IMG/VR virus record: IMGVR_UViG_3300024291_000003
Coordinates: 1-52,475 of that record
Origin: a virus
Lineage: Duplodnaviria > Caudoviricetes
DNA: 52,475 nucleotides
Strand: one strand, 5' to 3'
The notes under the pieces are model-generated. The model did not search any database, was not told the DNA's origin, and was given only the letters and a program-made list of their open reading frames with translations. The position numbers and the translations under genes were made by a program. Shown in pieces: positions 4,664 through 41,434 of this stretch. Position 1 is the stretch's first letter. Each line of letters starts with the position of its first letter.

Positions 4664-5483
4664 AGTTACGTAAAGTTTTATACAGAGGGTGGCGATAACT
4701 ATTAGCTTTAGTACGCTCGAAATAAGTGAACGTTGCACGTTTGCCAATATAGTCGTCAACATTGTTTAGTATGTCACGGCGGTCTTGAAAGTTGTAGCCT
4801 TTGCCGATAGGGCAGCCGAACTCAATACCATCGTCGTCACACATTAGAAACTTACCGATTAAGCCAGTAAATTTGCCTTTACCGGGTACATAGCCTACTA
4901 TTGTCGCCTCGGTATCGTGAAAATCTTTAAACTTTTGTAGGTTATAAGATCGTTTACACTCGTAAACACCGTTTAAACGCAAAATAGAGCCTTCGTAGCC
5001 TTCGTCAAGCCAGTTTTCGTGTATAGCATTCGCTAGATCACGGGTTGCAACAGGATGTGTTGGTACATACTTAACACAATAAGAATACAATGCTGCAGTA
5101 GACAAAAATTTCATACGCTCTTCAAACTTAGCTGAGGTATCGATATAATCGTAGCAATGGAATTGCACGAGATCACAGGATTCGACACGATCAACAGCGG
5201 TTGGTTTGGTTTTACGAACAAGTGAAATGATTTTTTCGAAATCACTTTTTAGGTCGTGGTTGTATAATTCGCCGTCGAGTATTAAATCAGGGTATTGCTT
5301 AAACACTGGCTTAAGATTGGATAATATGTGGTCAATGTTTAGCCACGGTTTGCCTGTACGCGAGAACGCACCGTCTTTAGAGATTACGCAACGTACGCCG
5401 TCAAGCTTAGGTTGCATGAATACTTTCTCGGACCAGTCGACAGGTTTTTTGTCTACTTTGTATGCGAGCATTGGTTTTATCAT
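4656..5483 (-). CDS. ATP-dependent DNA ligase
   Basis: KPMLA, motif I QPKLDGVRC, LDGELY, YEGSILR, KRS..LQKFK and OB domain. Confidence 0.95.
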   Translation of the reverse strand: MIKPMLAYKVDKKPVDWSEKVFMQPKLDGVRCVISKDGAFSRTGKPWLNIDHILSNLKPVFKQYPDLILDGELYNHDLKSDFEKIISLVRKTKPTAVDRVESCDLVQFHCYDYIDTSAKFEERMKFLSTAALYSYCVKYVPTHPVATRDLANAIHENWLDEGYEGSILRLNGVYECKRSYNLQKFKDFHDTEATIVGYVPGKGKFTGLIGKFLMCDDDGIEFGCPIGKGYNFQDRRDILNNVDDYIGKRATFTYFERTKANSYRHPLYKTLRNYE

Positions 5484-5764
5484 AATTTATTTAGTTTAGT
5501 TTCTATTTTTTTTATTTTATTATTTATTATTGCTGCTTTTTCATATTGTTCGCGCTCTTCATACTGCGTTAAAAGAGTCATAAGTCTAGCTAATTCAGCT
5601 AATAACAACTCTTCTTCTGACGCATGTAGTAAGTCATTGCCCGAAAACATAGTATTTACATCGTTAGTAAACTGCAGATCCCATTCTTTTTGCTTTTCAA
5701 TTAAAGCGTTAAAAACGAGATCCGCAATCTTAACTGCTAGTTTATCTAGCTCGCCTTCACTCAT
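5480..5764 (-). CDS. Hypothetical protein with UVR-like C-terminal coiled coil
   Basis: EQYEKAAIINNKI resembles the UvrB/UvrC motif. Confidence 0.55.
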   Translation of the reverse strand: MSEGELDKLAVKIADLVFNALIEKQKEWDLQFTNDVNTMFSGNDLLHASEEELLLAELARLMTLLTQYEEREQYEKAAIINNKIKKIETKLNKL

Positions 5765-5994
5765 TAAGCGTAAGAGAATTTATATACAGGTAGTACATAC
5801 TTGTTAATAAATTTACCCTTAGACTCAGAAGTACGTAGGCCTTCGAACACGTGGTTCGGCACTTTGTGGTAATTGTACGATTGACCGTTGTTAAACTGTA
5901 GTTTTAAACGATAACTTGAATACTCATAGATAGCGTTTTGAATTGCAGTGGAGTTAACCTGTACAATTTGTTTTGGTAGAATTAATTTGTTCAT
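5764..5994 (-). CDS. KTSC-domain protein
   Basis: VNSTAI...Y...L.LQF.NG..Y.Y..VP..VF..L..SESKGKFIN. Confidence 0.9.
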   Translation of the reverse strand: MNKLILPKQIVQVNSTAIQNAIYEYSSYRLKLQFNNGQSYNYHKVPNHVFEGLRTSESKGKFINKYVLPVYKFSYA

Positions 5995-6019
5995 AAATTT
6001 AATTGTTTTTATTTGTTAT

Positions 6020-6052
6020 TATTATCGTTTTACATTCGTGTTTATTTTGTAA
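6020..6052 (-). promoter_or_regulatory. Conserved phage promoter
   Basis: TTACAA-N4-AACACGA-N8-CGATAATA upstream of KTSC. Confidence 0.8.
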
Positions 6053-6053
6053 G

Positions 6054-6659
6054 TTAATGAAATACTAAACCTACTTTATTTGTTTTATTAAACCACCTAG
6101 TAGCATACAAATCTACTGAAGAAGCGTCAGTATAACCAGCAGATATAAGATCGCTATTACTAGAAAATATTTTGGTGTGTCGGTGTTTTCTTTCATTTAT
6201 TAAATGTTTTTGTTTACCTGAATCACTGAATATAATATCGTAATTGTCTGGTAATGAAGTTTTTAAGATCATATCTACCATATTGGTGTAACTGTAAAAC
6301 CGTACGTCTGGGTTGTGTATAGCAATTTGAATCCACTTTTTTAGATATGCGGGTGAGTAGTAGTCTCCGCTATCATGGACTCTTACGTAATCTGGTTTTT
6401 TACGTTTTATCTCAGTATTCATTGCATCAATAAACTCATCGGTCTTGGTTAGCTCGTATCGTTTCTCAAACGCCGGCTTTACGTTACTCCATATATATGC
6501 TCCTTTCTTAGCATAACAGAATTTAACACAGGCATCCGCCATAGGGCACGTTAATTTACCGCTCGCAGATTTATATGCGGGAATGCCGAAATTAAATACC
6601 CTTAGATTAAGGCTTTTGGATGTTTTCTTTAGTTTAGAGTTTTGTGTTAGTAAATTCAT
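6054..6659 (-). CDS. gp88-like Cys-cluster protein
   Basis: NSKL, TCP.A.AC..FCYA, VRVHDSGDYYS and FYSYT motifs. Confidence 0.75.
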   Translation of the reverse strand: MNLLTQNSKLKKTSKSLNLRVFNFGIPAYKSASGKLTCPMADACVKFCYAKKGAYIWSNVKPAFEKRYELTKTDEFIDAMNTEIKRKKPDYVRVHDSGDYYSPAYLKKWIQIAIHNPDVRFYSYTNMVDMILKTSLPDNYDIIFSDSGKQKHLINERKHRHTKIFSSNSDLISAGYTDASSVDLYATRWFNKTNKVGLVFH

Positions 6660-6660
6660 A

Positions 6661-6933
6661 TTAGTCTAATAATACCATATAAGCTTCAACATTGTTCTTG
6701 CGAAACCAGTTGAGTGCTTTATGGAAGTCGTTAATTTGTTTTGTTGTTACCGTCTTAGGTGCTACTTCAAACACGTATTGGCTACCCATTATAAAATCAT
6801 ACATAGATAGCTCAATACCGTTTAGGTTAAAGCTTTCGCCACTAAATTTATTAGTAACTTCTTCACCTTTATCGTAGATCATACCTTTAAACCATTTAGG
6901 TATTGTTTGTTCTTTAATCTTCGTCATCGCCAT
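6661..6933 (-). CDS. Hypothetical protein
   Basis: 90-aa ORF ending AYMVLLD, in operon. Confidence 0.7.
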   Translation of the reverse strand: MAMTKIKEQTIPKWFKGMIYDKGEEVTNKFSGESFNLNGIELSMYDFIMGSQYVFEVAPKTVTTKQINDFHKALNWFRKNNVEAYMVLLD

Positions 6934-7270
6934 CTATTCTGAATAAGTCTTCAATTTCACTGCAAATGTTTTCTTCAAGATCATCTGTGTAGTTGAATTC
7001 TATGTTAGACACTTCTACTCTATTATCGTAGTTTAATTCAAAGTCAATATCGTAGTTGTCGGCATTATCGAATTGATAGCCTCGTATACCTTCGCACACG
7101 GCTTCACGTATTTGATCTCGTATTTCTACAGATATTACAGGTTTGTTTACATCAGCGAGCTGTACTTTAGCTTCTTGTAATTGCTTAGCAAGTGCTGTTT
7201 GATCGGTTTCGAATTGCGTTAACGCAGCGGTTAACTCTTTTACTTTTAATTCTAATTGTTCTTTAGTCAT
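6914..7270 (-). CDS. Hypothetical protein, coiled-coil N-terminus, acidic C-terminus
   Basis: 118-aa ORF in operon. Confidence 0.7.
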   Translation of the reverse strand: MTKEQLELKVKELTAALTQFETDQTALAKQLQEAKVQLADVNKPVISVEIRDQIREAVCEGIRGYQFDNADNYDIDFELNYDNRVEVSNIEFNYTDDLEENICSEIEDLFRIDGDDED

Positions 7271-7271
7271 A

Positions 7272-7517
7272 TTATTCTTGTTTTATTAAAATGTTTTCAC
7301 CATATTTGAAATCCCACGCTGAAACTTTATAAAATTCTAGATGGGTAAATGTGTATAGCGAGCTAACGTCGCTAATTTTTAATTCACTATAGAACTCAGT
7401 ACTTGATAAAGCGTTGACTATAGAGTCTATACTTGCTTGATACTTTTCGTTTTCAGGTGAATGTAATGCTTCTTTGATTTCTGGCTTTAGCCTTTGATAA
7501 ATTGTTAGTCTACTCAT
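7272..7517 (-). CDS. Hypothetical protein
   Basis: First ORF after the promoter at 7536-7568. Confidence 0.7.
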   Translation of the reverse strand: MSRLTIYQRLKPEIKEALHSPENEKYQASIDSIVNALSSTEFYSELKISDVSSLYTFTHLEFYKVSAWDFKYGENILIKQE

Positions 7518-7535
7518 AATTGTTTTTGTTTATTA

Positions 7536-7568
7536 TATTATCGTTTATTGTTCGTGTTTTGTTTGTAA
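7536..7568 (-). promoter_or_regulatory. Conserved phage promoter
   Basis: TTACAA-N4-AACACGA-N8-CGATAATA. Confidence 0.8.
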
Positions 7569-7750
7569 ATGTCTTCAAAGTTTTCTAAGGCTAATTTGTA
7601 GCCAAAGTTTTTCGCCATTTGCATTAGTAAAAAGTCGTTTGTACCGTTATTTGCCTTAGTGAAGGCTTCTAAATAATCTTCGGTAGGCGTAGCCACAATA
7701 CCTCGATCGAGCATTTGATACTCTTGTTTAATGAAATTCTTTATATCCAT
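7538..7750 (-). CDS. Hypothetical protein
   Basis: 70-aa ORF with AT-rich leader, just downstream of the mini-tmRNA. Confidence 0.65.
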   Translation of the reverse strand: MDIKNFIKQEYQMLDRGIVATPTEDYLEAFTKANNGTNDFLLMQMAKNFGYKLALENFEDIYKQNTNNKR

Positions 7751-7769
7751 AATATTTAATTTTAATTAG

Positions 7770-7849
7770 TGGAGGTGGAGAGATTCGAACTCTCTTCCGC
7801 AGTGTTTCCCATATAGGGCTTTACACCACGTCAATACCAGGTCACCCCC
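7770..7849 (-). ncRNA. Miniature tmRNA-like RNA (tRNA-like domain only)
   Basis: GGGGGUG/CACCUCC acceptor with G3-U70 and A discriminator; stemless D-loop ending UUGAC; P2 GUGGUGU/ACACUGC capped by a short hairpin; GGAA linker; T-arm GAGAG-UUCGAAU-CUCUC. Confidence 0.85.
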
Positions 7850-7853
7850 TGTT

Positions 7854-8035
7854 GTAACTAGTGAGGATTCGAACCTCATACTCGTCAGTAGTAAACCTAC
7901 CTAGTTGCCGCTAGAATCGGCCTCTGAAAACAACCGCATGAACTTATCGCCGCGATTGCCCTCCTGCCTTGCCATCTAGCATCGGTTTTCGTATTTTCTA
8001 TAGAGCCATATACCGTAAAACTCTGCCACTAGCTA
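7854..8035 (-). ncRNA. 182-nt tRNA-like RNA with a large internal insertion
   Basis: Acceptor UAGCUAG/CUAGUUA, then UGGCAGAG D-arm start; T-arm UGAGG-UUCGAAU-CCUCA; no canonical anticodon arm identifiable. Confidence 0.7.
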
Positions 8036-8096
8036 TTCACTTATGTACACACGTATCTCCTCCCTGAGTTCCTATGTGTCTAATTAAGCTACTCGT

Positions 8097-8285
8097 CTAG
8101 CGTCTTCGCCAAGATTTATGCACTAAGGCACTTAGTTCTTGACTAACTATCTGTATTGTATTACCAGTTTTATGTTCTATTATTGGTACATAACTATAAT
8201 CTTGAACAGTGCTACAAGGTACACATGTTTTATAACCATACTCTATCCTGATCGGATGAACTTCAACTCCGCATTTACAATACAT
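8097..8285 (-). CDS. Small zinc-finger protein
   Basis: MYCKCG...HPIR...GYKTCVPCS; resembles DksA/TraR-type C4 finger; first gene after the promoter at 8314. Confidence 0.7.
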   Translation of the reverse strand: MYCKCGVEVHPIRIEYGYKTCVPCSTVQDYSYVPIIEHKTGNTIQIVSQELSALVHKSWRRR

Positions 8286-8310
8286 AATATTTTATTTTTA
8301 TTTGTTACAT

Positions 8311-8751
8311 TTATATTATCGATAATGCTTCGTGTTGCTTTTGTAAATAATTTAATACACTTGTCCAATCAGGAAATTTATCAGTACCGAATTGTATAAG
8401 TTCACCACCGAACTCACCAGCGCCGTTAGCCGTTCTGTCGTCGATCAAATAATCGCCACTTAATAAGTTTTTGTGGTTAGATAGGATCAACTTTTTATAA
8501 GCGTGTTTACCTAAGTGTTTACTTACCCACATTCTCTTATGAGTCCAAGATTTAGGCATACCCCACGGCGCAGTGGATAATATATATACATCAAGACCGT
8601 CGGTTTCGCATAACTTTTTAAATGCCTCAACCGCATAACCTATGGGTTGTAAGTCTTTAAATATGTGTTGGTGCCAACCTGTTCTATTTAGTTCGGTTTG
8701 TAGATCAACCAGGACGCCGTCCATGTCTATATATATTATCTTATTCTTCAT
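8311..8751 (-). CDS. 5'(3')-deoxyribonucleotidase (NT5C, HAD family)
   Basis: IYIDMDGVLVD, ILSTAPW, K..W...H, GDYLIDD; probable start is ATG 8751 (MKNKII), not 8844. Confidence 0.9.
   Translation of the reverse strand: MKNKIIYIDMDGVLVDLQTELNRTGWHQHIFKDLQPIGYAVEAFKKLCETDGLDVYILSTAPWGMPKSWTHKRMWVSKHLGKHAYKKLILSNHKNLLSGDYLIDDRTANGAGEFGGELIQFGTDKFPDWTSVLNYLQKQHEALSII
8314..8346 (-). promoter_or_regulatory. Conserved phage promoter, upstream of the zinc-finger gene and both ncRNAs
   Basis: TTACAA-N4-AACACGA-N8-CGATAATA. Confidence 0.8.
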
Positions 8752-8941
8752 AATAATTCTTTTTAATAGCGAAGTACATTTTCTCGATCGCTCGGAACAT
8801 AACTTCACCGTGTATAGCATTGTAGTCATCACCTTCTTGATCAAAGTCCGCTAATTGCCAGTCAATACTGTCATACATTAATTCCATAGTGACGTCCGCT
8901 ATTCCTTCAGCGATATCGTCTAATTCTTTCATTTTACCCAT
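8741..8941 (-). CDS. Acidic hypothetical protein
   Basis: MGKMKEL...; coupled to neighbours. Confidence 0.65.
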   Translation of the reverse strand: MGKMKELDDIAEGIADVTMELMYDSIDWQLADFDQEGDDYNAIHGEVMFRAIEKMYFAIKKNYYEE

Positions 8942-9116
8942 ACATATAATCTTCCATTGCGTTAATAAAGTCTTCTCTATCTATTATTTGTCTATCGTAG
9001 CATTCAAGGTTGAACAAGAAAGCTTCGTGTAGTTCTCGCTTACTTACTGGTACAGCGGGGAATCCACCGTCCTCTAGTATTTCGTAATACTTTTTTACTG
9101 AATCACTCATTACCAC
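8934..9116 (-). CDS. Hypothetical protein
   Basis: 60-aa ORF in operon. Confidence 0.6.
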   Translation of the reverse strand: MVMSDSVKKYYEILEDGGFPAVPVSKRELHEAFLFNLECYDRQIIDREDFINAMEDYMYG

Positions 9117-9216
9117 TTAGTTTCATTAGGCATAGGACCCATAAATTCATAAAACGCTTTGTGGTACTTAGTTATTTTTGCGATAACTAAATGACTAAAT
9201 TTTCTTACTTTTTTCA

Positions 9217-9492
9217 TTACTTACAGTTTTTATTGTTAAATTCTAATAATCTTCTTATGCGATCGGAATGATTAGGTATTAATGATCTTACCCAATTGTA
9301 GCCGTATTCGCTGTTTGGTTTATACCAATGCTTTGTTTGCTTGGTTATTTGGTACATTAGCGGTTTTTTATGGTAATAGTTATCTTGTTTGGTAGATACT
9401 CTTACGTGACCGCTAGGATAGGTTGCACCAATTCGTCCATCACTCAATTTAAAATGTAGAGCTCCATCTTTAGTTACTTTAATTAATTCCAT
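9217..9492 (-). CDS. Hypothetical protein
   Basis: 91-aa ORF in operon. Confidence 0.65.
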   Translation of the reverse strand: MELIKVTKDGALHFKLSDGRIGATYPSGHVRVSTKQDNYYHKKPLMYQITKQTKHWYKPNSEYGYNWVRSLIPNHSDRIRRLLEFNNKNCK

Positions 9493-19616: not shown

Positions 19617-21170
19617 ATGGAATACAACAATCCAAGTGAGATAGTGAAAACACTCACTTTTGGCGGAGAAGCCAAAGAGCAGATCATGCAAGGTGTCGAA
19701 AAATTATCAAACGCAGTAAAGAGCACATTAGGAGCATCTGGAAAATGCGTAATATACGAAGACGCACTAGGCAGACCGGTGATAACAAAAGATGGTGTAA
19801 CCGTTGCGGAAAGCGTAGTCTTACTACATCCGGTCGAGAACATAGGAGCCACTCTTATAAAAGAAGCGGCAAGTAATACAGTAAAGGAAGCAGGAGACGG
19901 TACAACAACATCAACCGTCCTTGCTCATTCCTTGCTTAAAACAGTTAACAAGCATTTAGATGAAGAAAAAGTTAGAGAACTTAAGAGCGGCATTATTAGC
20001 GGTTCTGAAAAAGTCATGGTTTATCTTGATAAAACCAGTACTGAAGTTAAGGGTGAAATGCTTAAACAAGTTGCAGGGATTTCATGCAATAATGACCAAG
20101 CGCTCGGCGACAAAATTGGAAAAGCTTACGAAAAAGTTGGAAAAAATGGAGTCGTATTAATGGAAGAGTCTGATACAAACGAGACTTATGTTGAGTTTGT
20201 TGACGGCGTTCAATTTGACAGTGGCTTAAAATCACCACATTTATCTACGGATAAAAACAAAGGTACTGCTACATTAGAAGATCCTTATGTACTAATAGTA
20301 TCTTCTCCAATACCAAATATACGAAGAATACAAAACGTATTAGAATTCGTAATCAAAAATAAGAAAAGTTTACTAGTAGTAGCAGACGTGGAACAACAGC
20401 CATATCAAACTCTATTAGCGAACAAGGTAAAAGGAAACATAAAGATAAATATAGTTGACTTACCTGGATTCGGCCCTACTAAACAACAGACACTAGAAGA
20501 TCTAGCTATATTGACAGGGGCTACAATTATAAACGAGGAGTTAGGAGACGATTTAGACTTCATAGAGCCTAATGTATTAGGTAAAGCTTTTAAGTCCGTT
20601 ACGGATGATAAAAACACTGTTCTACAAGTAGCTGAAGCAACTGAAGAAGTAGCTTTAAGAATAATAGATGTAGAAAAGCAAATAGGTGAAGAAACTAATC
20701 CATTTTTTAAGAAACAATTAGAACAACGCTTGTCTATGTTAACTGGTCAAGTTGGCATTATATACGTTGGCGCGGATTCTAAGGTAGAACTTAAAGAGAA
20801 AAAAGATAGGGTTGAAGACGCTATATATGCGACGAAAGCTGCTTATAAGGAAGGAATAGTTGCAGGAGGCGGTGTAGCGTTATTAAATGCTTCTACTATA
20901 ATTAAACCTAAAAACAAAGGAGAGGAAGTGCTGCTTGAAGCAATAAAAGCTCCATACCATACTATATTAGAAAATGCAAACATACCAGTTGTATATCCCT
21001 CAATGAAAAACAGAGGTATAGACGTTAAGACTGGCAAAGATGTTAATATGGTTAAAGCAGGGATAATTGACCCAGTGTTAGTTACAAAGTCTGCTTTAAA
21101 AAATGCAGTAAGTGTTGTTGCTACTATAATATCAGCGGATTGTGTAATCAGTAATAAAAGATTAGCATGA
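19617..21170 (+). CDS. groEL: Phage chaperonin GroEL
   Basis: ITKDGVTVA, AGDGTTT, GVQFDSG, EKKDRVEDA, GIVAGGG and GIIDP motifs; no GGM tail. Confidence 0.97.
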   Translation: MEYNNPSEIVKTLTFGGEAKEQIMQGVEKLSNAVKSTLGASGKCVIYEDALGRPVITKDGVTVAESVVLLHPVENIGATLIKEAASNTVKEAGDGTTTSTVLAHSLLKTVNKHLDEEKVRELKSGIISGSEKVMVYLDKTSTEVKGEMLKQVAGISCNNDQALGDKIGKAYEKVGKNGVVLMEESDTNETYVEFVDGVQFDSGLKSPHLSTDKNKGTATLEDPYVLIVSSPIPNIRRIQNVLEFVIKNKKSLLVVADVEQQPYQTLLANKVKGNIKINIVDLPGFGPTKQQTLEDLAILTGATIINEELGDDLDFIEPNVLGKAFKSVTDDKNTVLQVAEATEEVALRIIDVEKQIGEETNPFFKKQLEQRLSMLTGQVGIIYVGADSKVELKEKKDRVEDAIYATKAAYKEGIVAGGGVALLNASTIIKPKNKGEEVLLEAIKAPYHTILENANIPVVYPSMKNRGIDVKTGKDVNMVKAGIIDPVLVTKSALKNAVSVVATIISADCVISNKRLA

Positions 21171-28006: not shown

Positions 28007-30433
28007 ATGGCTGAGTCAGTTATAAATAGTTTTTTCCCAAGCCAAGTTGCTAGCGACGCAGAGAAAGTGTCACCTGAGTATGGATTGAGAGTTGGTAGAG
28101 CTATTCAAGATGAATGGTTTAAATCCGATTCTGGTAGTAATAGATATAAGAGTAATCAAAATACTTTTCATAAGCTGAGGTTATATGCTAGAGGTGAGCA
28201 ACCAATACAAAAGTACAAAGATGAGCTATCAATTAACGGTGACTTGTCTTACTTAAATATAGACTGGAAGCCTGTTCCTATAATACCTAAGTTTGTAGAC
28301 ATCGTTGTTAACGGAATATCTGAAAGAGCTTTTGATATAAAAGCACACACGCAAGATCCTTATGGTGTTTCAAAAAGAACTAAATATTTAGAAAGTATAA
28401 TAAGAGATATACAAACTAAAGAGATTAATGACTTTGCGCAAGAAAACTTCGGTGTAAATTTATATGAAAACCCACCTGAAATGCTACCAGACTCTAAAGA
28501 AGAGTTGGATGTTCACATGCAGTTAACTTATAAGCAAGCTGTAGAGATCGCTGAAGAGCAAGCAATAAACGTTTTACTGGAGGGTAATCATTACGATTTA
28601 ACAAAGAAAAGAGTTACCTACGATTTAGCAACCATAGGTATTGGTGCTGTGAAAAACAGATTCTCTAAATCCGAAGGAGTTGTAATAGATTATGTAGATC
28701 CTGCTAATTTAGTTTGGTCACACACAGATTCACCTTACTTTGACGATATATATTATTGTGGGGAAGTTAAAGACGTTGCTATTAATGACTTAAAAAAGCA
28801 ATTTCCAGAATTAACAGGTGAAGATTTAAAAAGCATATCAAGACAAGGATACCAGAACAACGGTTTCTATGACAGATCGCTTTCTAATTATAACGAATCA
28901 GATTCAAATACAGTTCAAGTTTTGTATTTCAACTACAAGACATACATGAACGAGGTTTATAAAATAAAAGAAACAGCTACAGGAGCATCTAAAGTTTTAT
29001 TAAGAGATGATACTTTTGATCCACCAGTAGAAGTGCTTGAGCAGCAGTTTGGTAAATTATCAAGGTCTATTGAAGTATTATATGAAGGTGTTTTAATATT
29101 GGGTACAGACTATTTACTTAAATGGGAGTTAGCCAAGAATATGATGCGACCTAAAAGCGACAGCGCTAAAGTATATTTGAATTACAGTATAAACGCACCT
29201 AGAATGTACAAAGGGCGTATAGAATCTTTAGTTAGTAGAATAACTGGGTTTGCTGATATGATACAGCTAACACATTTAAAATTACAGCAAGTGTTATCTA
29301 GAATGGTTCCTGATGGCGTTTATTTAGATGCTGATGGCTTGGCTGAGATTGATTTAGGTAATGGAACAAATTACAATCCCCAAGAGGCTTTAAATATGTT
29401 CTTTCAAACAGGTTCTGTTATCGGTAGATCTTTCACACAAGAAGGAGATATGAATCCGGGCAAAGTACCTATTCAAGAAATAACAAGCGGAAGTGGTGGT
29501 AATAAATTAGGAGCTTTAATTAACACCTATAATTATTACTTACAAATGATACGTGATGTCACTGGGTTAAACGAAGCAAGAGATGGTAGTATGCCTGATT
29601 CTAAATCTTTAGTGGGCATACAAAAAATCGCAGCGGCAAATAGTAATACAGCTACAAGACACATATTAGAAGGAGGACTTTATATAACTGCGCATCTAGC
29701 GGAGTGTCTGTCGCTTAGAATATCAGATATTATAGAATATTCACCAGCCAGGGATGCTTTTATACAAAAGATAGGATCTCATAATGTTGCTACGCTAGCT
29801 GAAATGGGTAATTTACATTTGTATGATTTTGGTATATTCTTAACACTTATGCCAGACGAAGAGCAAAAGCAAATATTAGAGAACAACATACAGACAGCTT
29901 TATCAGCAGGTTTAATAGACTTGGATGATGCTATAGATATAAGAGACGTTCAGAACCTAAAGTTAGCTAATCAATTGCTAAAGGTTAAACGACGTAAGAA
30001 ACAAGAGCGTGATCAATTGATTCAGCAGCAAAACATTCAAGCACAGGCGCAAGCAAACGCTCAAGCTCAACAAGTAGCTGCTCAAGCTGAGATTCAAAAG
30101 AATCAAGCATTAATAGCGCAAAAAGCAGAACTAGTCCAATTAGAAGGCCAACTGGATCTACAAAAACTTCAAGCAGAAGTGGAAGCTAAAAAAGAATTAA
30201 TGGCTCAAGAGTTTCAGTACAACATGCAACTAAAAGGCATGGAAACACAAAATAATAAAAGTAGAGAGTCTCAAAGAGAAGATAGAAAAGACGATAGATC
30301 TAAAATGGAGGCATCTCAACAAAGTGAATTAATAGAACAAAGAAAAAACAATACACCACCAAAAAACTTTGAATCCGGCGGAAACGACATAATTGGCGGT
30401 GGATTTGACTTAGGTACCTTTGATCCTAAGTAA
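28007..30433 (+). CDS. Portal protein
   Basis: 808 aa after TerL; PIIPKFVDIVVNG, DVTGLNEARDG; C-terminal Q-rich barrel coiled coil (podovirus-like). Confidence 0.85.
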   Translation: MAESVINSFFPSQVASDAEKVSPEYGLRVGRAIQDEWFKSDSGSNRYKSNQNTFHKLRLYARGEQPIQKYKDELSINGDLSYLNIDWKPVPIIPKFVDIVVNGISERAFDIKAHTQDPYGVSKRTKYLESIIRDIQTKEINDFAQENFGVNLYENPPEMLPDSKEELDVHMQLTYKQAVEIAEEQAINVLLEGNHYDLTKKRVTYDLATIGIGAVKNRFSKSEGVVIDYVDPANLVWSHTDSPYFDDIYYCGEVKDVAINDLKKQFPELTGEDLKSISRQGYQNNGFYDRSLSNYNESDSNTVQVLYFNYKTYMNEVYKIKETATGASKVLLRDDTFDPPVEVLEQQFGKLSRSIEVLYEGVLILGTDYLLKWELAKNMMRPKSDSAKVYLNYSINAPRMYKGRIESLVSRITGFADMIQLTHLKLQQVLSRMVPDGVYLDADGLAEIDLGNGTNYNPQEALNMFFQTGSVIGRSFTQEGDMNPGKVPIQEITSGSGGNKLGALINTYNYYLQMIRDVTGLNEARDGSMPDSKSLVGIQKIAAANSNTATRHILEGGLYITAHLAECLSLRISDIIEYSPARDAFIQKIGSHNVATLAEMGNLHLYDFGIFLTLMPDEEQKQILENNIQTALSAGLIDLDDAIDIRDVQNLKLANQLLKVKRRKKQERDQLIQQQNIQAQAQANAQAQQVAAQAEIQKNQALIAQKAELVQLEGQLDLQKLQAEVEAKKELMAQEFQYNMQLKGMETQNNKSRESQREDRKDDRSKMEASQQSELIEQRKNNTPPKNFESGGNDIIGGGFDLGTFDPK

Positions 30434-35674: not shown

Positions 35675-38600
35675 ATGCCAGAATTTTTACACACGTTCCT
35701 CAAGGGTAAAATGAACAAAGACCTTGATGAGCGTCTAGTTCCAAATGGCGAGTACAGAGATGCTTTAAACCTAGAGGTGGCTACATCTGAAGGCTCAGAC
35801 GTGGGTGCGTTGCAAACACTTATCGGTAACGTTCAAAAAGAAAATCGTAGTTTAAACGACATAACAACTTTACATACTACATGGCAAGCATCTGGACTAG
35901 CATATATACCGGTTGATTCTAAATGTATAGGTACTGTTAAAGATCCTACTACTGAAAAAATATACTGGTTTATTGCTGCAAGTAGTATAAACGCTATTAT
36001 AGAATACGACCAAATAAGAGATGTTGTATATCCAATATTAGTTGAAAAAAAATCAGATTCTAACTTCTTAAAATTTAGTCCTGATCATTTAATAACAGGA
36101 GTAAATATATTAGAGGGATTCTTATTCTTTACTGATAACCAAACAGAACCTAAAAAAGTTGAAATTGAAAAATTTAAAGAAGGTTCAACAAGCTTCGACC
36201 AGACTACACAGATATTCGGTAGAAATATTGAAGAAGCAGATATAACTGTTATTAAAAAATCACCCTTACTGAAGCCTACTATATACAAAAAAGAATCTGT
36301 AAGAGACGGTGAGATTAGAACAACTACAAGTTTTGAATTTAATACCTTATCAACAGATCCTGAAGATGACCCGGATGAGGTTATCTCTATGGATTTTGGT
36401 ACTGTTATAACATTAGACTGGGCCGATCCTGCGGATTATATAGCGGGTGACTTTCTACTATTAAGCATACAAGATCCAGATGACAACTTTAATAGAAGCT
36501 TTCAAGCTAGAGTTAAAGTAACTCAAGTTGTTTCTGAATTGCAATGTATATGTGAACTACAAAGTGTAGGAGAAGACTTACCTCCTGGCGTACAAGGTTT
36601 TGACGTTGAGTTAGAACTTGACGATCCATTATTTGAGTTCAAATTCCCTAGGTTCGCATACAGATATAAGTATGACGACAACCAATTCTCAGCATTTTCT
36701 CCATTTACGGAAGTAGCTTTTATACCTGGTCAAGAATTTGAATACACGGGAGCAGATGGTTATAATCTAGCTATGACTAATAATATTAGGGTTTTAGAGG
36801 TAAGAGATTTTATATCTTCTGATATACCTGACGATGTTATAGCGGTAGATATACTTTATAAAGAATCCAGTAGCACTAATGTATACAGGGTTGATACTAT
36901 AGAAAAAAGTGCTCCTAACTTACCTGGTAAAGATTACAACCAATGGTACGATACGTCTTACCAAGGGCCCGCTAGCACAGGCTTTAGCGGTAGAATTAAA
37001 ATAGAAACAGAGCTAATATCTTCGTTGCTTCCATCAAATCAATTGCTAAGACCTTATGACAACGTGCCTTTAAAAGCGCTCGCACAAGAGATAACAGGTA
37101 ATAGGCTAGTATATGGTAACTACACGCAGAACTTTAACATGGTTGACTTTGCGGATAACGAGGTTATACCTAACTTTGAATTTAGTATAGTACATGATCC
37201 AAGCAAGAACGAGGATATAGACCCTGATACCGGTTTAAATAGCCAATCAGATCCTATAGCGGGTGTACCAATAGAATCTCTAAAGTCTATGCGTACATAC
37301 CAGATGGGTATCGTATATTTAGATGAGTACGGTAGACAAACACCTGTATTTACAAATGACTCTGGTGGTAGATCATTAGCAAAAGAATTCGCAGATCTTT
37401 ATAATACTATTGAGATCGGCATGTTATCGAACCCTCCTAAGTGGGCTACACATTACAAATTCTACGTAAAAGAAACTTCCAACGAATACTACAATATAGC
37501 TTTAGACAGATTTTATTTACCTGATGATGGTAGTGTTTGGTTGTCTTTCCCATCTGCTGATAGAAATAAAGTAGATGAAGAAACATTCTTAGAACTTAAG
37601 AAGGAACATGACAATGACGTATTTATAGCTGAGACAGCTAGGTACAAAATACTATCTATATCTAATGAAGCGCCTGATGCTGTTAAAATAAGAAGATCTC
37701 AAGTAGGTAGACAATCTACTCCGTTTACAGCCTCCGGTTATCCGCAAGTAAACAAAGGTTTCTTTGAGGTGCCAAAAGATGATTTTGAAGGTACTGACAC
37801 AGGTGGCGGTGGATTAGCCGATCTAAATAAAGAAAATAATCTTTCTTGTAGAATAATAATGGGAGGTAGAATATCCGATTATTTTGAAATAGAATGGATA
37901 AAAAAACAAGGAGCTGTATACAGAATACAATTAAGGTTCCCTACTGACGATAGTATAGATTTTGTACCGGAAGGACAAACTACAGGCAATATGGATATAG
38001 CCATATACCAATCGAAAGCAGAAAACAAGCCTGAATACCAAGGTAGATTTTTCGTAAAAATATATAAAGACAACGCTTTAGAACAAAGAATAATAAAGCT
38101 AGCGGAAGATGCTCAACTAACTGTTGAATATACAGCACAGGTTGCTTATATACAAAAAGACGGTAAGACAAGTTGGTGGAGAGACAGTGATCCTCGCGTG
38201 TCTAAAAAGTGGTTTTGGGATAAAGTACATCCGTTAGATGTAAGGAGAAGAGCGTCCCCTGATGTAAAATTCCAAAATGGTAATCAATTAGAAAGACCAT
38301 ATACTGGTTTAGGTATACAGACGGGCTCTAGGGATCTAACTATATCTTATCATGGTTTTGGTAACCCTTGGAAACAAAGTAGAGCTTTTTACAACCGCAA
38401 AGGAATTTGGTGGAATTGGCCAACTAACACACCCTCTGATGCTCATCATATAGGGTTTGCTAAATCGCTAGATACAACTGGTAGTGTATTTAGAGTAGCT
38501 GAAGATCCTGATAAAGAATTAGATGACCATACATACACAATAACCAAGAGTTATAGATCTGCTTATTGTGTTGCAAGCAGAAGAACAGGTAGACACGGAT

Positions 38601-41434
38601 CTGGTAAATATGGATCTAGGAGAGTCGTTAGATGGAATATTAAAATAGATAAACCTATAGCTTCAGCCGCTGGTCTACCAACACCAACTGGCAGTTCTAA
38701 TCCACCACAAAAGCCAATTGAATTTCTAAGGCTATACGCTGTCGACGCAGATACTTATACTTCTACAAACCCAGCTATATTTGAGACTTACCCAAAAGAA
38801 GCTATTGATTTAGATTTATATTATTCCGCAAGTGATATATATAGTATAGAGAATCCCGGCACAACAGAAGCAGCTCACCAACCTATCAAGAAGCTTGGTT
38901 GGTTTAATTGCTATACATTCGGTAACGGTGTTGAATCAGATCGTATACGTGACGATTTTAACGCTGTCCGTATAGACAAAGGTCCTGTTGTTTCTACTGT
39001 ACTAGATGAGGCATACGGTGAAGAGTTAAAAGCAACTGGTTTAATATTTTCTCAAATATTTAACTCAAGGTCTGGTATTAATAGACTTAATCAGTTTATT
39101 ATGGCTGAGCCAATAACAAAAGACTTAAACCCATATTACACTAGTGTTCAAAAACTACATTCAAGAGATACCGATTTAATAGCTCTATGTGAAGATAAAA
39201 TATTAAAAATATTAGCAAACAAAGATGCCTTATTCAATGCAGATGGTAATACAAACGTTGTTGGTAACACCGCTGTTCTTGGACAGTCTATCCCGTTTAT
39301 AGGGGAGTATGGTATATCTAAGAATCCTGAGAGTTTTGCTTCTTATGGGTTTAGAGCTTATTTTACAGATAAAAACAGAGGAGTTGTATTAAGGTTGTCT
39401 AGAAATGGATTAGAGGAAATATCGTCAGCAAATATGCGTGATTTCTTTGCTGATAACTTATACTCATCTTCTGTCTTATTAGGCTCATACGATGACGATA
39501 AGAACGTTTATAATCTTACTCTTAATAAACTTACTGATGAGTGGCAAAGCAAGCTTAAACTCGGCGAAAACAGATCGCAGGGTCGAGTTAATGAAAAAGC
39601 TATACAGCTTCCGCCTCACACAGGTACAACTGTTTCTTTTAAAGAAGATGTAAAAGGTTGGACATCCCGTAAAGACTTTATACCAGAAGGAGCTATATCT
39701 TTAAACAATGTTTATTATAGTATAAAAAAGGGTAGAATATGGGAGCACGGGGCTACTAATGCTACTAGAAATAATTTTTACGGTGTTCAATATGATAGTG
39801 CAGTGCGCTTCATGATAAATGAGCAACCTAATAGCGTTAAAAAATATAAGACTTTAAACTATAACGGTACAGAATCAAAAGAATACAGGTATAAAGTAGA
39901 AGGTTTCCCAGAAGTTCAAACATTTAGTTTAGCTGAACTACAAGCTAACCCATCTTATGTTCCTATTAGCGAAGTTTCTACACCTGGATGGTATTCAAGT
40001 TTAATACAAACCAATTTACAAGAAGGTAGTATTAAAGAATTCTTAGACAAAGAAGGGAAGTACTTTAATTATATAAAAGGTATTGGAACAAAATTTGAAT
40101 CAAACCATGATAATAACCTAGATAGCTCAGAGTTTTCAATGCAGGGAATTGGGCGAGCTGTTGTTTCAGGAGACGTACAATCGTCATTTATTATGCATGT
40201 AGAAGTTGATCCTACTTGTTATATAAGCAGGGTAGCTCCAGTAGTTGTAAATGGTAATTTAGATATATACGAAGACTGTTCTTCATGCGGCTCGATCGAC
40301 TTAGCTAATTTAACAACAAATAGTAATAGCCCAGCCGGCAATGTAACATATCAAATAGTTCAAGATAATACAAATGATGTATTAGCTATACTTAGCGGTA
40401 GTGTAATGCAATACCAATCTGTTACACCTAATTTTAATGGAAGCGCTGGCTCGTTTAACTTTACAGCAACAGACACTCTTAATGGATCCTCTTTAGTGAG
40501 CAACGTGGGCACTGTTACTGTTAATGTTATACCTGTTCCAGATGTACCTTACTTTGTAACAACTCCGCCAAATACTTCTCAGGCTGTAGGGGATCTTTAT
40601 ATGTACAATTTCCAAGTTGATGATGCAGATCACGCAGCTGGTGACTTAATTATAACGTCCAACAACTTACCTAGTTGGTTAACAATTGCCCATCAAATTG
40701 ATGGTAACTACGTGGTTAGTGGTATAATACCAGACACAAACACTTATAATTTTGATTTAATCGTAAGCGATACAGATAATCCACCAAATACAGCAACACA
40801 AAATGTTGAAACATCTAGTGCGTTAGCTAATCTTTTAAGCAATTTAGATATAATAGGTAGATACGTTAAAACAGCGGAACCAGCAGGAGTTTGGGTAAAT
40901 CCAAGTACAGGCGTTTCAACCCAAGTATGCGCGTCAACAGCTAACGGTAGTCACACTTGTAACTACGGTACATTCAATATATTAGCTAAAGGAGATTTAA
41001 TGTCTGCCCCTTTAGAAATTGGTAGAGTGTCTATATCGAATTCTGGTGGTGGTGGAAATAACGGAAGCGCGTCGACGGTTGTTGATGATGATGGCAACTA
41101 CACTCTTGATCTAGGGGTTCCTAGTGGTAATGAGAAATACTATACTCCACAAGGTACAGTTAGAAGTGATAAAGATAGATACGATGGTTTTCAAATAAGT
41201 GCTGCGGATGCTCAAACTTTAGCTAATGGATCTAGCAATGGACACATCACGTTCACAATGGAATGTGGAAGCACTAAGGTTTTGAGCAACGGAACAGTTG
41301 AACCACTATGTCATGCAGATGCATTATGGTTTCAGATATTTGATTTAAACGGACAACAAATACTATGTAGCGCTTTTACTGTTCAATCTTTAATAACAAT
41401 TGACATATACACAGGCCAACCTGTCGAAGACTAA
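35675..41434 (+). CDS. Tail nozzle/stabilization protein with Ig/cadherin-like C-terminal extension
   Basis: GKMNKDLDERL.P.GEYRDALN N-terminus, GEYGISKNPESFA, GWTS; C-terminal F.FTATD...VTVNV.PV.D.P.F and LPSWL modules. Confidence 0.75.
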   Translation: MPEFLHTFLKGKMNKDLDERLVPNGEYRDALNLEVATSEGSDVGALQTLIGNVQKENRSLNDITTLHTTWQASGLAYIPVDSKCIGTVKDPTTEKIYWFIAASSINAIIEYDQIRDVVYPILVEKKSDSNFLKFSPDHLITGVNILEGFLFFTDNQTEPKKVEIEKFKEGSTSFDQTTQIFGRNIEEADITVIKKSPLLKPTIYKKESVRDGEIRTTTSFEFNTLSTDPEDDPDEVISMDFGTVITLDWADPADYIAGDFLLLSIQDPDDNFNRSFQARVKVTQVVSELQCICELQSVGEDLPPGVQGFDVELELDDPLFEFKFPRFAYRYKYDDNQFSAFSPFTEVAFIPGQEFEYTGADGYNLAMTNNIRVLEVRDFISSDIPDDVIAVDILYKESSSTNVYRVDTIEKSAPNLPGKDYNQWYDTSYQGPASTGFSGRIKIETELISSLLPSNQLLRPYDNVPLKALAQEITGNRLVYGNYTQNFNMVDFADNEVIPNFEFSIVHDPSKNEDIDPDTGLNSQSDPIAGVPIESLKSMRTYQMGIVYLDEYGRQTPVFTNDSGGRSLAKEFADLYNTIEIGMLSNPPKWATHYKFYVKETSNEYYNIALDRFYLPDDGSVWLSFPSADRNKVDEETFLELKKEHDNDVFIAETARYKILSISNEAPDAVKIRRSQVGRQSTPFTASGYPQVNKGFFEVPKDDFEGTDTGGGGLADLNKENNLSCRIIMGGRISDYFEIEWIKKQGAVYRIQLRFPTDDSIDFVPEGQTTGNMDIAIYQSKAENKPEYQGRFFVKIYKDNALEQRIIKLAEDAQLTVEYTAQVAYIQKDGKTSWWRDSDPRVSKKWFWDKVHPLDVRRRASPDVKFQNGNQLERPYTGLGIQTGSRDLTISYHGFGNPWKQSRAFYNRKGIWWNWPTNTPSDAHHIGFAKSLDTTGSVFRVAEDPDKELDDHTYTITKSYRSAYCVASRRTGRHGSGKYGSRRVVRWNIKIDKPIASAAGLPTPTGSSNPPQKPIEFLRLYAVDADTYTSTNPAIFETYPKEAIDLDLYYSASDIYSIENPGTTEAAHQPIKKLGWFNCYTFGNGVESDRIRDDFNAVRIDKGPVVSTVLDEAYGEELKATGLIFSQIFNSRSGINRLNQFIMAEPITKDLNPYYTSVQKLHSRDTDLIALCEDKILKILANKDALFNADGNTNVVGNTAVLGQSIPFIGEYGISKNPESFASYGFRAYFTDKNRGVVLRLSRNGLEEISSANMRDFFADNLYSSSVLLGSYDDDKNVYNLTLNKLTDEWQSKLKLGENRSQGRVNEKAIQLPPHTGTTVSFKEDVKGWTSRKDFIPEGAISLNNVYYSIKKGRIWEHGATNATRNNFYGVQYDSAVRFMINEQPNSVKKYKTLNYNGTESKEYRYKVEGFPEVQTFSLAELQANPSYVPISEVSTPGWYSSLIQTNLQEGSIKEFLDKEGKYFNYIKGIGTKFESNHDNNLDSSEFSMQGIGRAVVSGDVQSSFIMHVEVDPTCYISRVAPVVVNGNLDIYEDCSSCGSIDLANLTTNSNSPAGNVTYQIVQDNTNDVLAILSGSVMQYQSVTPNFNGSAGSFNFTATDTLNGSSLVSNVGTVTVNVIPVPDVPYFVTTPPNTSQAVGDLYMYNFQVDDADHAAGDLIITSNNLPSWLTIAHQIDGNYVVSGIIPDTNTYNFDLIVSDTDNPPNTATQNVETSSALANLLSNLDIIGRYVKTAEPAGVWVNPSTGVSTQVCASTANGSHTCNYGTFNILAKGDLMSAPLEIGRVSISNSGGGGNNGSASTVVDDDGNYTLDLGVPSGNEKYYTPQGTVRSDKDRYDGFQISAADAQTLANGSSNGHITFTMECGSTKVLSNGTVEPLCHADALWFQIFDLNGQQILCSAFTVQSLITIDIYTGQPVED

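What the first reader, a model, noticed from the sequence alone, without database searches (positions are those of the whole stretch)
7770..7849. 80-nt mini-tmRNA: complete tRNA-like domain, no mRNA-like domain
Seen (- strand): GGGGGUGACCUGGUAUUGAC GUGGUGU AAAG CCC UAUAU GGG AA ACACUGC GGAA GAGAG UUCGAAU CUCUC CACCUCC A. It has every hallmark of the tmRNA tRNA-like domain: 7-bp acceptor with the G3-U70 alanine determinant and A73, a stemless D-loop with GG and ending GAC, helix P2, a GGAN linker and a canonical T-arm. P2 closes on a 17-nt insert instead of the usual ~270 nt of pseudoknots and tag ORF. CCA is not encoded (CUA). Established: this domain binds SmpB and EF-Tu and is charged by AlaRS; tagless tmRNAs are known from some protist mitochondria, and the phage tmRNAs I know of are full length. 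Inference: either a decoy that titrates SmpB and blocks tagging and degradation of phage proteins, or a tag-free rescue RNA that adds Ala to stalled chains. It lies in an early transcript (promoter 8314).
Basis: partly seen in the sequence, partly recalled or inferred. Interest (0 to 1): 0.95.

Follow-up and report, generated by a model that had tools for sequence, protein, structure and literature searches.

The report
Phage mini-tmRNA without tag region
A marine phage carries an 80-base RNA gene that is only the tRNA-like end of the bacterial ribosome-rescue RNA (tmRNA); this kind was reported once before, in a mycobacteriophage, and turns out to be common in uncultured phages.

Summary
Window 7770-7849 (-) is a complete tmRNA tRNA-like domain (TLD) whose P2 helix closes on 17 nt in place of the pseudoknots and tag frame. 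Rfam tmRNA scores it 63.9 bits (threshold 47) end to end; ARAGORN finds nothing.

It is not a one-off or an artefact. One pattern finds 108 viral contigs, and a truncated relaxed scan adds 79 more. That gives at least 187 loci and 100 sequence lineages. Covariation supports the acceptor, P2 and T-arm helices. G3-U70 is invariant when either side is left free.

It is not new in kind. Hudson et al. 2014 list mycobacteriophage DS6A as 'TLD only' and cite Mao et al. 2009 for a similar molecule that strongly inhibits tmRNA, perhaps by titrating SmpB. DS6A's 83-nt element scores 60.4 bits on my family model.

Best reading: a phage RNA that competes with host tmRNA for SmpB and blocks tagging. Tag-free rescue is the main rival. 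The wide spread among uncultured phages appears unreported in the papers I searched. The promoter at 8314 is unsupported.

The parts
7767..7849 (-). Mini-tmRNA gene (TLD-only tmRNA): 80 nt to the discriminator A73 at 7770, followed by CUA (7769-7767)
   Evidence: Sequence; Rfam RF00023 63.9 bits, model 1-374; family model R1 83.8 bits; MFE fold
7843..7849 (-). Acceptor stem 5' strand GGGGGUG, pairing with 7771-7777 (CACCUCC); includes G3-U70
   Evidence: Pairs 5 and 6 covary across the family. G3 and U70 are each invariant in 108 of 108 loci when left free
7830..7842 (-). Stemless D-region ACCUGGUAUUGAC, with GG and a terminal GAC
   Evidence: GG is present in 63 of 65 unique relaxed-scan members where it was not forced
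7799..7829 (-). P2 helix (7823-7829 GUGGUGU with 7799-7805 ACACUGC) enclosing the 17-nt cap AAAG-CCC-UAUAU-GGG-AA (7806-7822)
   Evidence: All 7 P2 pairs change on both sides in each of two alignments. The internal segment is 14-17 nt in 67 of 81 unique sequences
7795..7798 (-). GGAA linker (GGAC in most tmRNAs)
   Evidence: Among 81 unique sequences the linker is GGAC in 35 and GGAA in 26
7778..7794 (-). T-arm GAGAG-UUCGAAU-CUCUC
   Evidence: 4 of 5 stem pairs covary and 100% of cells are paired
7770..7770 (-). Discriminator A73
   Evidence: A in 81 of 81 unique sequences although the pattern did not include this position
7854..7908 (-). Element X: a second, unclassified tRNA-like RNA 4 nt upstream of the mini-tmRNA. 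It has an AACUAG/CUAGUU closing stem, a small hairpin, CUGACGAGUAU, and the T-arm-like hairpin GAGG-UUCGAAU-CCUC
   Evidence: 14 distinct versions: window plus 13 relative loci. No Rfam or ARAGORN call
8029..8046 (-). Conserved single-copy motif at the head of the small-RNA cluster
   Evidence: Unique in the window. Its 11-nt core occurs once each in 9 lineage-0 loci, upstream of the mini in those checked
7538..7750 (-). First ORF downstream (70 aa, no convincing family). It starts 17 nt after the RNA, and no terminator-like site was found between them

Best explanation
It is a phage-encoded, tag-less tmRNA consisting of the tRNA-like domain alone, of the same family as the 'TLD only' element of mycobacteriophage DS6A. 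It sits in the minus-strand arm of small genes of a podovirus-like phage whose closest cultured relatives infect Flavobacteriia. It lies in a small-RNA cluster and is probably cut out of a longer transcript like a tRNA (RNase P at the 5' end; 3' trimming and CCA addition by host enzymes). This processing is inferred. The mature RNA presents everything that host AlaRS, EF-Tu and SmpB recognise on tmRNA but has no resume codon or tag frame. The most likely action is competition with host tmRNA for SmpB, and possibly for the empty A site of stalled ribosomes. That would shut down SsrA tagging and the proteolysis that follows during infection. Shown here: the anatomy, the family, its covariation, its near restriction to viral sequence, and its homology to DS6A. 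Taken from the literature: that such a molecule inhibits tmRNA. Inferred: processing, charging, SmpB binding and the benefit to the phage.
For: Anatomy and score.

Family size: 108 viral contigs match the strict pattern. A further 79 of 100 new loci from a truncated relaxed scan score 44 bits or more on model R1. Together that is 187 loci, 146 unique sequences and 100 lineages at 85% identity, with flanking GC of 27-69%.

Structure is under selection. 93.8% of cells are paired against 44-53% in slid controls, and all 7 P2 pairs and 4 of 5 T-stem pairs change on both sides. This is replicated on the second set, at 93.4% against 44-55%.

Alanine identity is kept: U70 in 108 of 108 when free, G3 in 108 of 108 when free, and A73 in 81 of 81 when unforced.

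Same family as DS6A. Its 83-nt element (JN698994 28478-28560) was not in the training set and fails my pattern, yet it scores 60.4 bits, E 3e-10, over model positions 1-81. It also shares the cap motif.

[quoted passage not shown] A laboratory TLD fragment binds SmpB in the crystal structure (PMC3985003, passages).

The window encodes no SmpB, so the RNA must use the host's.

The form is almost confined to viral sequence: 8 hits in 185,579 prokaryote genomes, all on MAG contigs.

8 of the 60 loci examined have a tRNA gene within 10 nt of the mini, which fits tRNA-like processing.
Against: No experiment exists on this RNA or on any Flavobacteriia phage. The inhibition result is known to me only through two citing papers, because Mao et al. 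2009 is not held. If SmpB titration worked 'whether or not chargeable', the strict conservation of G3-U70 and A73 across about 100 lineages would be more than a pure sponge needs. That points to a step requiring alanylation and favours the rival. Expression is not demonstrated: contigs from four RNA libraries bridge the element, but such libraries can hold DNA and contigs show no ends. G3-U70 was tested only within patterns that fix the other TLD features. The family model was built from pattern-selected sequences.
Confidence: 0.55

Rival explanations
1. Tag-free rescue RNA. Ala-mini-tmRNA with host SmpB and EF-Tu enters stalled ribosomes and accepts the nascent chain. It thereby frees ribosomes from broken mRNAs without marking the protein for degradation. 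The peptidyl-RNA is then resolved by host hydrolases or by drop-off, or further rounds add more alanines. This is the role suggested for the tag-less mitochondrial tmRNAs.
For: The AlaRS identity set is invariant where it was left free, as are the D-loop GG and the T-loop needed for a tRNA-like fold. Peptidyl transfer to a TLD-only tmRNA has been measured in vitro (PMC3895274, passage citing Shimizu and Ueda 2006). Tag-less tmRNAs persist in mitochondria together with SmpB and are thought to help with incomplete mRNAs (PMC11915505).
Against: The window encodes no release or hydrolase activity: no RF-1/ArfB domain and no peptidyl-tRNA hydrolase at E<=1 (the record is about 82% complete). No neighbouring protein family is shared by more than 5 of 58 lineages, so no dedicated partner is apparent. 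The citing papers report inhibition of tmRNA, not rescue. Reviews doubt that tag-less forms can complete trans-translation.
Confidence: 0.25
2. Decoy for a host defence. The RNA mimics tmRNA or tRNA in order to absorb or mislead a defence nuclease or sensor that acts on them, for example systems carrying SmpB-like RNA-binding domains.
For: Defence systems with SmpB-like OB folds that are predicted to bind tmRNA have been described (CoCoNuTs, PMC11090510, passages). The element is nearly confined to viral sequence and lies among early-arm genes next to another tRNA-like RNA.
Against: No link was found to any defence or counter-defence gene. There is no conserved neighbour. Conservation covers the whole TLD, including the AlaRS determinants, which a sensor decoy would not obviously need.
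Confidence: 0.08
3. A tRNA-shaped processing or stabilising signal in a polycistronic early transcript, with no role for the released RNA.
For: It lies 17 nt upstream of an ORF with no terminator-like site between them. In other phages it abuts tRNA genes.
Against: Any tRNA-like fold would serve that purpose. Here the tmRNA-specific features (stemless D region, GAC with GGA(C/A), P2, G3-U70, A73) are kept across about 100 lineages with very different flanks.
Confidence: 0.05
4. A dead remnant: an internal deletion of a full-length ssrA, an assembly artefact, or an attP fragment of a phage that integrates into ssrA.
For: A distant relative, Cellulophaga phage phi38:1, has a full-length 362-nt tmRNA, so deletion from such a gene is a plausible origin.
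Against: At least 187 independent contigs have the same size class, with compensatory changes. The stretch is held by 20 of the 22 listed public runs. Both halves are present and pair, whereas attP sites keep only one end. No integrase was found in the window.
Confidence: 0.02

Closest known systems
'TLD only' tmRNA of Mycobacterium phage DS6A (Mao et al. 2009, as cited; Hudson et al. 2014; tmRNA database paper 2025)
   Same: Same size (83 nt with tail) and same order of parts. It has the same A-rich cap followed by a short hairpin, ends ...CUCCACUA, and is phage-borne. It scores 60.4 bits on the family model built without it.
   Different: The host phylum differs (Actinomycetota against a probable Bacteroidota). 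Its D region is 14 nt with C at position 8, and its linker is GCAC where the window has GGAA. Its Rfam score of 43.2 is below the gathering threshold, whereas the window's is 63.9. DS6A is reported as a single case; here the form is seen in at least 187 viral loci.
Standard one-piece bacterial and phage tmRNA (Rfam RF00023), e.g. the 362-nt gene of Cellulophaga phage phi38:1
   Same: Both ends of the molecule are shared: acceptor with G3-U70, stemless D region, P2, GGA(C/A) linker, T-arm, A73. phi38:1 also has CUA in place of an encoded CCA.
   Different: There are no pseudoknots, resume codon or tag frame. Only 17 nt lie between the P2 strands, where the model has 304 positions.
Mitochondrial tag-less tmRNA of jakobids and oomycetes (Rfam RF02544), and the ~65-bp plastid forms
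   Same: A natural tmRNA reduced to the tRNA-like domain, thought still to work with SmpB (PMC11915505; PMC3985003).
   Different: There is no sequence-level match: RF02544 finds nothing in the window at E<=10. Those forms arose by reduction in an organelle, not in a virus that exploits a host which has its own full tmRNA.
Laboratory TLD constructs used for SmpB co-crystals and in vitro trans-translation
   Same: The design is the same: the 5' and 3' ends of tmRNA joined by a short loop. Such constructs bind SmpB and accept the peptide in vitro.
   Different: Those constructs are engineered. The natural RNA keeps a longer P2 (7 bp) and a conserved A-rich internal loop with a small hairpin, whose role is unknown.

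Membership tests
tmRNA (tRNA-like domain, Rfam RF00023) | Score at or above the curated gathering threshold, with both ends of the model matched | tested here: met
   63.9 bits against 47; model positions 1-374
tmRNA (tRNA-like domain, Rfam RF00023) | 7-bp acceptor stem with G3-U70 and discriminator A73 (AlaRS identity) | tested here: met
   In the family, U70 is 108/108 when free, G3 is 108/108 when free, and A73 is 81/81 when unforced
tmRNA (tRNA-like domain, Rfam RF00023) | D region without a stem, with GG and GAC facing a GGA(C/A) linker; 5-bp T-stem with a 7-nt T-loop; P2 helix | tested here: met
   Covariation in P2 and the T-stem. GG in 63 of 65 when unforced
tmRNA (complete, functional in tagging) | mRNA-like domain: resume codon, tag reading frame with a stop, pseudoknots | tested here: not met
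   Only 17 nt lie between the P2 strands. 304 model positions are deleted. ARAGORN finds no tag peptide
tmRNA (complete, functional in tagging) | Alanylation by AlaRS; binding of SmpB and EF-Tu | not testable with these tools
   Only the sequence determinants could be checked
Phage TLD-only tmRNA (DS6A type) | About 80 nt; the two tmRNA ends in normal order joined by a short cap; phage-borne | tested here: met
Phage TLD-only tmRNA (DS6A type) | Homology to the DS6A element | tested here: met
   On model R1 the window scores 83.8 bits and DS6A 60.4 bits (E 3e-10), both over model positions 1-81; DS6A was not in the training alignment
Phage TLD-only tmRNA (DS6A type) | Inhibits host tmRNA when expressed | not testable with these tools
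   Known only from citing papers, for a similar molecule in E. coli
Mitochondrial tmRNA (Rfam RF02544) | Match to the family model | tested here: not met
   No match at E<=10; 21 candidates scored
Canonical tRNA (e.g. tRNA-Ala) | Cloverleaf with D-stem and anticodon arm | tested here: not met
   ARAGORN finds 0 genes in the window. In the relaxed scan the three ARAGORN-called tRNA-Ala genes that passed the E-value cut (L139, L140, L212) score 34-36 bits on R1, against 44-81 for minis
Two-piece (permuted) tmRNA | The 3' acceptor piece is encoded upstream of the 5' coding piece | tested here: not met
   The 5' strand lies upstream of the 3' strand in one contiguous 80-nt unit

The most novel reading that the evidence does not exclude
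Tag-less mini-tmRNAs are a widespread class of translation-targeting RNAs almost confined to phages: at least 100 sequence lineages, in phages with flanking GC from 27% to 69%. They must be alanylated to work. That would explain why G3-U70 and A73 never vary, although titrating SmpB alone is reported not to need charging. On this reading the RNA enters stalled ribosomes. There it either caps nascent chains with untagged alanine or jams host trans-translation. That would make it a general phage answer to hosts that respond to infection by cutting mRNAs or tRNAs and stalling ribosomes.
Probability: 0.3. Interest if true: 0.75.

Novelty: new member of a known kind. Interest (0 to 1): 0.5.

Why it matters
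Trans-translation is the main ribosome-rescue and protein quality-control route in bacteria, and phages are known to depend on it or interfere with it. A natural RNA that keeps only the SmpB- and AlaRS-binding half of tmRNA is a ready-made inhibitor or modifier of that route. The single published case (DS6A) made it look like a curiosity. The comparative data here suggest a recurrent phage strategy across hosts of very different composition. Standard annotation misses it, because ARAGORN does not call it. The invariant alanine identity elements make one question directly testable: is the RNA a passive SmpB sponge, or does it act on the ribosome?

Tried and rejected
- My first collection pattern had one N too many and found nothing. 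I corrected it.
- megablast of window 7000-9000 and blastn of the 83-nt element against 50,697 phage records gave no match. megablast of relative locus L025 hit only tRNA genes. No cultured phage with this lineage's mini was found that way. These searches are insensitive for an 80-nt RNA.
- Of five cultured relatives chosen by terminase similarity, none has a mini; only phi38:1 has a full tmRNA. Maribacter phage Panino's annotated tmRNA is not a mini.
- RNA evidence: contigs of four metatranscriptome runs bridge the element (X16 7241-8099; X18 and X19 7241-7927; X4 5448-9480). Summed word depth is higher in the 7738-8271 bins in three of the four runs. The tool warns that contig depth cannot rank regions and that RNA libraries can hold DNA, so I do not count this as evidence of expression.
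- The sigma-70 promoter and terminator scan was uninformative.
- The 201 nt upstream of the mini do not fold better than shuffles (z -1.36).
- ORFs within 4 kb of the mini in 117 loci show no shared partner protein.
- SmpB, RF-1/ArfB, peptidyl-tRNA hydrolase and integrase were not found in the window. The record is about 82% complete, so absence is not proven.
Mao et al. 2009 is not held. Supplementary tables of the tmRNA database papers were not seen and may list further phage TLD-only entries.

Full report
**What is there.**
- It has a 7-bp acceptor stem with G3-U70, and a 13-nt D region without a stem that contains GG and ends in GAC.
- A 7-bp P2 helix encloses only 17 nt (AAAG, a CCC/GGG hairpin with a UAUAU loop, then AA).
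- Then follow a GGAA linker, a 5-bp T-stem with loop UUCGAAU, the acceptor 3' strand, A73, and CUA.
- Rfam's tmRNA model matches 7767-7849(-) from its first to its last position at 63.9 bits (gathering 47, E 1e-22). 304 model positions are replaced by 13 nt.
- The minimum-energy fold gives the same helices (-31.4 kcal/mol, z -2.88).
- ARAGORN calls nothing in the whole window. Rfam's mitochondrial tmRNA model finds nothing at E<=10.

**Genome context.**
- The window is a linear viral record of 52,475 bp, estimated about 82% complete, with GC of 32-41%.
- It encodes a GroEL-like chaperonin, large terminase and portal.
- By tblastn the terminase and portal match 87 cultured-phage records: 68 Flavobacterium, 15 Cellulophaga, 2 Tenacibaculum, 1 Maribacter and 1 unclassified. 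The best terminase match has 63.4% identity. The host is therefore probably a marine member of the Flavobacteriia.
- The RNA lies in the minus-strand arm of small genes, 17 nt upstream of a 70-aa ORF, with no terminator-like site between them.
- Neighbours include a GP88-family protein, an ATP-dependent DNA ligase and an NT5C-like nucleotidase.
- The window holds no SmpB, RF-1/ArfB domain, peptidyl-tRNA hydrolase or integrase.
- The sigma-70 scan gives no support for the promoter proposed at 8314. That scan does not model Bacteroidota promoters.

**It is a family, not an accident.**
- A pattern encoding the TLD with a 25-55 nt interior matches once in the window and in 0 of 100 shuffles.
- The same pattern matches 108 contigs of the viral collection. 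It matches only 8 contigs among one genome each of 185,579 prokaryote species, all of them MAG contigs.
- The 108 loci give 81 unique sequences of 67-91 nt, of which 67 are 76-79 nt.
- I aligned 77 of the 81, leaving out four length outliers (L014, L024, L101, L105).
- On that alignment 93.8% of cells form standard pairs, against 44-53% when the 3' partners are slid. All 7 P2 pairs, 4 of 5 T-stem pairs and acceptor pairs 5 and 6 change on both sides. RNAalifold recovers the same three helices.
- Of its 100 new loci, 79 carry a full-length match of 44-81 bits to a covariance model built from the first alignment. Six further matches scored 34-37 bits, and ARAGORN calls three of them (L139, L140, L212) tRNA-Ala.
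- The second set reproduces the covariation: 93.4% paired against 44-55%. That alignment was fitted to the model, so it leans towards the structure.
- Together this makes 187 loci, 146 unique sequences and 100 lineages at 85% identity, with flanking GC from 27% to 69%. This is a lower bound.

**What is conserved when not forced.**
- With position 70 left free the scan returns the same 108 loci. With position 3 left free it again returns 108. G3-U70 therefore has no exception within the pattern-defined set.
- A73 lay outside the pattern and is A in 81 of 81 unique sequences.
- GG in the D region is present in 63 of 65 unique relaxed-scan members.
- CCA is encoded in only 42 of 146 sequences. 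CUA, as in the window, occurs in 30.
- The interior is 14-17 nt in 67 of 81 sequences. It usually starts A-rich (AAAG in 32, AAGG in 8) before a hairpin of 2-5 bp.

**Neighbourhood.**
- ORFs within 4 kb of the element in 117 loci show no protein family shared by more than 5 of 58 lineages. There is no dedicated protein partner.
- Of the 60 loci (out of 108) that I gave to ARAGORN, 21 hold tRNA genes, and in 8 a tRNA gene lies within 10 nt of the mini.
- ARAGORN never called the mini itself. It made three spurious long tmRNA calls, in L002, L006 and L060.
- The element therefore travels like a tRNA gene and is invisible to the usual tmRNA finder. Rfam does score it above threshold, also in relatives.

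**Prior art.** My first literature searches by descriptive phrases found nothing. The tmRNA database papers did.
- Hudson, Lau and Williams 2014 (PMC4131195, passages read) list 'Mycobacterium phage DS6A (TLD only)'. [quoted passage not shown]
- The 2025 database paper (PMC11915505, passages) repeats this. It adds tag-less forms in mitochondria and two plastids. It searched RefSeq viruses only.
- Mao et al. 2009 is not held, so the experiment is known to me only through these citations.
- In the DS6A record the element lies at 28478-28560(+), unannotated, between gp33 and gp34. It scores 43.2 bits on Rfam, below threshold.
- Its sequence has the same order of parts and the same cap motif, and it ends ...CUCCACUA. 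It fails my pattern (14-nt D region, C at position 8), yet it scores 60.4 bits, E 3e-10, end to end on the family model. The window's RNA and DS6A's are the same kind.
- Further searches found no paper describing this form as widespread in phages. Subscription journals and supplementary tables were not visible to me.

**How it most likely works.**
- Established, from reviews read as passages: SmpB binds the TLD and supplies the missing lower half of the tRNA shape. A laboratory TLD fragment closed by a tetraloop binds SmpB in the crystal. G3-U70 is the AlaRS determinant.
- Peptidyl transfer to a TLD-only tmRNA has been measured in vitro.
- The phage RNA offers all of these surfaces but no template. 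The window encodes no SmpB. The RNA must therefore draw on the host's SmpB, and it competes with host tmRNA.
- I give about 0.55 to inhibition of tagging by competition for SmpB, and possibly for the A site.
- The main rival, at about 0.25, is productive tag-free rescue. The invariant alanine identity set is its best argument, because a pure SmpB sponge is reported not to need charging.
- The lack of any release factor or hydrolase in the phage, and of any conserved partner, leaves the release step to the host. The two readings differ in one testable prediction: whether an uncharged G3-C70 mutant keeps activity.
- Minor rivals are a decoy for a defence that senses tmRNA or tRNA (one search gives the precedent of SmpB-like domains in defence systems), a mere processing signal, and a dead remnant. 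The comparative data contradict the last.

**Expression.** The stretch 7400-8400 is held by 20 of the 22 listed public runs, all labelled seawater or marine metagenomes; 6 of them are metatranscriptomes. Contigs of four RNA libraries bridge the element. This shows presence in RNA libraries. It does not show transcription, ends or strand.

**Verdict.** The finding is real and well described, but it is a new member of a known kind. Its added value is the evidence that the kind is common and diverse in uncultured phages, missed by ARAGORN, and under selection for alanine identity.

Noticed in passing
window 7854-7908 (-): Element X, a second tRNA-like RNA 4 nt upstream of the mini-tmRNA. It has an invariant AACUAG/CUAGUU closing stem, a conserved CUGACGAGUAU, and a T-arm-like hairpin that covaries (GAGG/CCUC, GAGAG/CUCUC, GAAGG/CCUUC). 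An internal insert varies so that the whole extracted element is 61 nt in the window and 112 nt in L061. There are 14 distinct versions (window plus 13 relative loci). Neither Rfam nor ARAGORN recognises it.
   Followed up: partly
window 8029-8046 (-); L003, L016, L034, L038, L046, L048, L061, L085, L106: An 18-nt motif is unique in the window. Its 11-nt core occurs once in each of 9 lineage-0 loci. In the six I worked out (L003, L016, L034, L046, L048, L061) it lies about 80-190 nt upstream of the mini-tmRNA on the same strand. It seems to mark the head of a small-RNA cluster, as a promoter or a 5' leader. One further hit, in L069, lies downstream of that locus's mini and is probably chance.
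   Followed up: partly
L025, L034, L037, L051, L061, L081, L085, L098 (upstream of the mini): A third structured element (Y), closed by a UGUGCAG/CUGCACA stem with a variable interior, sits between element X and the mini-tmRNA in many relatives but is absent from the window.
   Followed up: no
L133 / PP540027.1 27557-27889: Maribacter phage Panino's annotated 333-nt tmRNA overlaps tRNA-Asp and tRNA-Thr. In the sequence the 3' TLD half lies upstream of a 5' TLD half. That looks like a permuted two-piece tmRNA gene in a Flavobacteriia phage, and the published annotation is probably wrong in its limits.
   Followed up: partly
L123 / KC821614.1 26803-27164 (-): Cellulophaga phage phi38:1 carries a full-length 362-nt tmRNA (87.6 bits) that also ends ...CCUCCACUA. 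Full-length and mini forms therefore both occur among phages of Flavobacteriia.
   Followed up: partly
L110-L117: All 8 prokaryote-genome hits to the mini pattern are on MAG contigs. They include bins labelled Saccharibacteria and 'archaeon', and they score 64-88 bits on the family model. They are probably phage contigs binned with cellular genomes.
   Followed up: no
L002, L006, L060: ARAGORN makes long tmRNA calls (303, 344 and 652 nt, with tag peptides) that overlap the mini's place. They look like false extensions, and such calls could enter annotations as full-length phage tmRNAs.
   Followed up: no
L063 1859-1932 (-): ARAGORN calls a tRNA with anticodon CUA (labelled tRNA-Pyl), a possible amber suppressor, in a 133-kb viral contig that also carries a mini-tmRNA.
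   Followed up: no
window 7898-8101: Contigs from RNA libraries show loose ends at 7898, 7938, 8000, 8028, 8047 and 8101, with diverged alternative sequence. This suggests co-occurring strain variants that differ in the small-RNA cluster upstream of the mini.
   Followed up: no
window 19617-21170 (+), 35675-41434 (+), 45769-52473 (+): The phage encodes a GroEL-like chaperonin and two very long ORFs, of 1919 aa and more than 2235 aa. I did not examine these.
   Followed up: no
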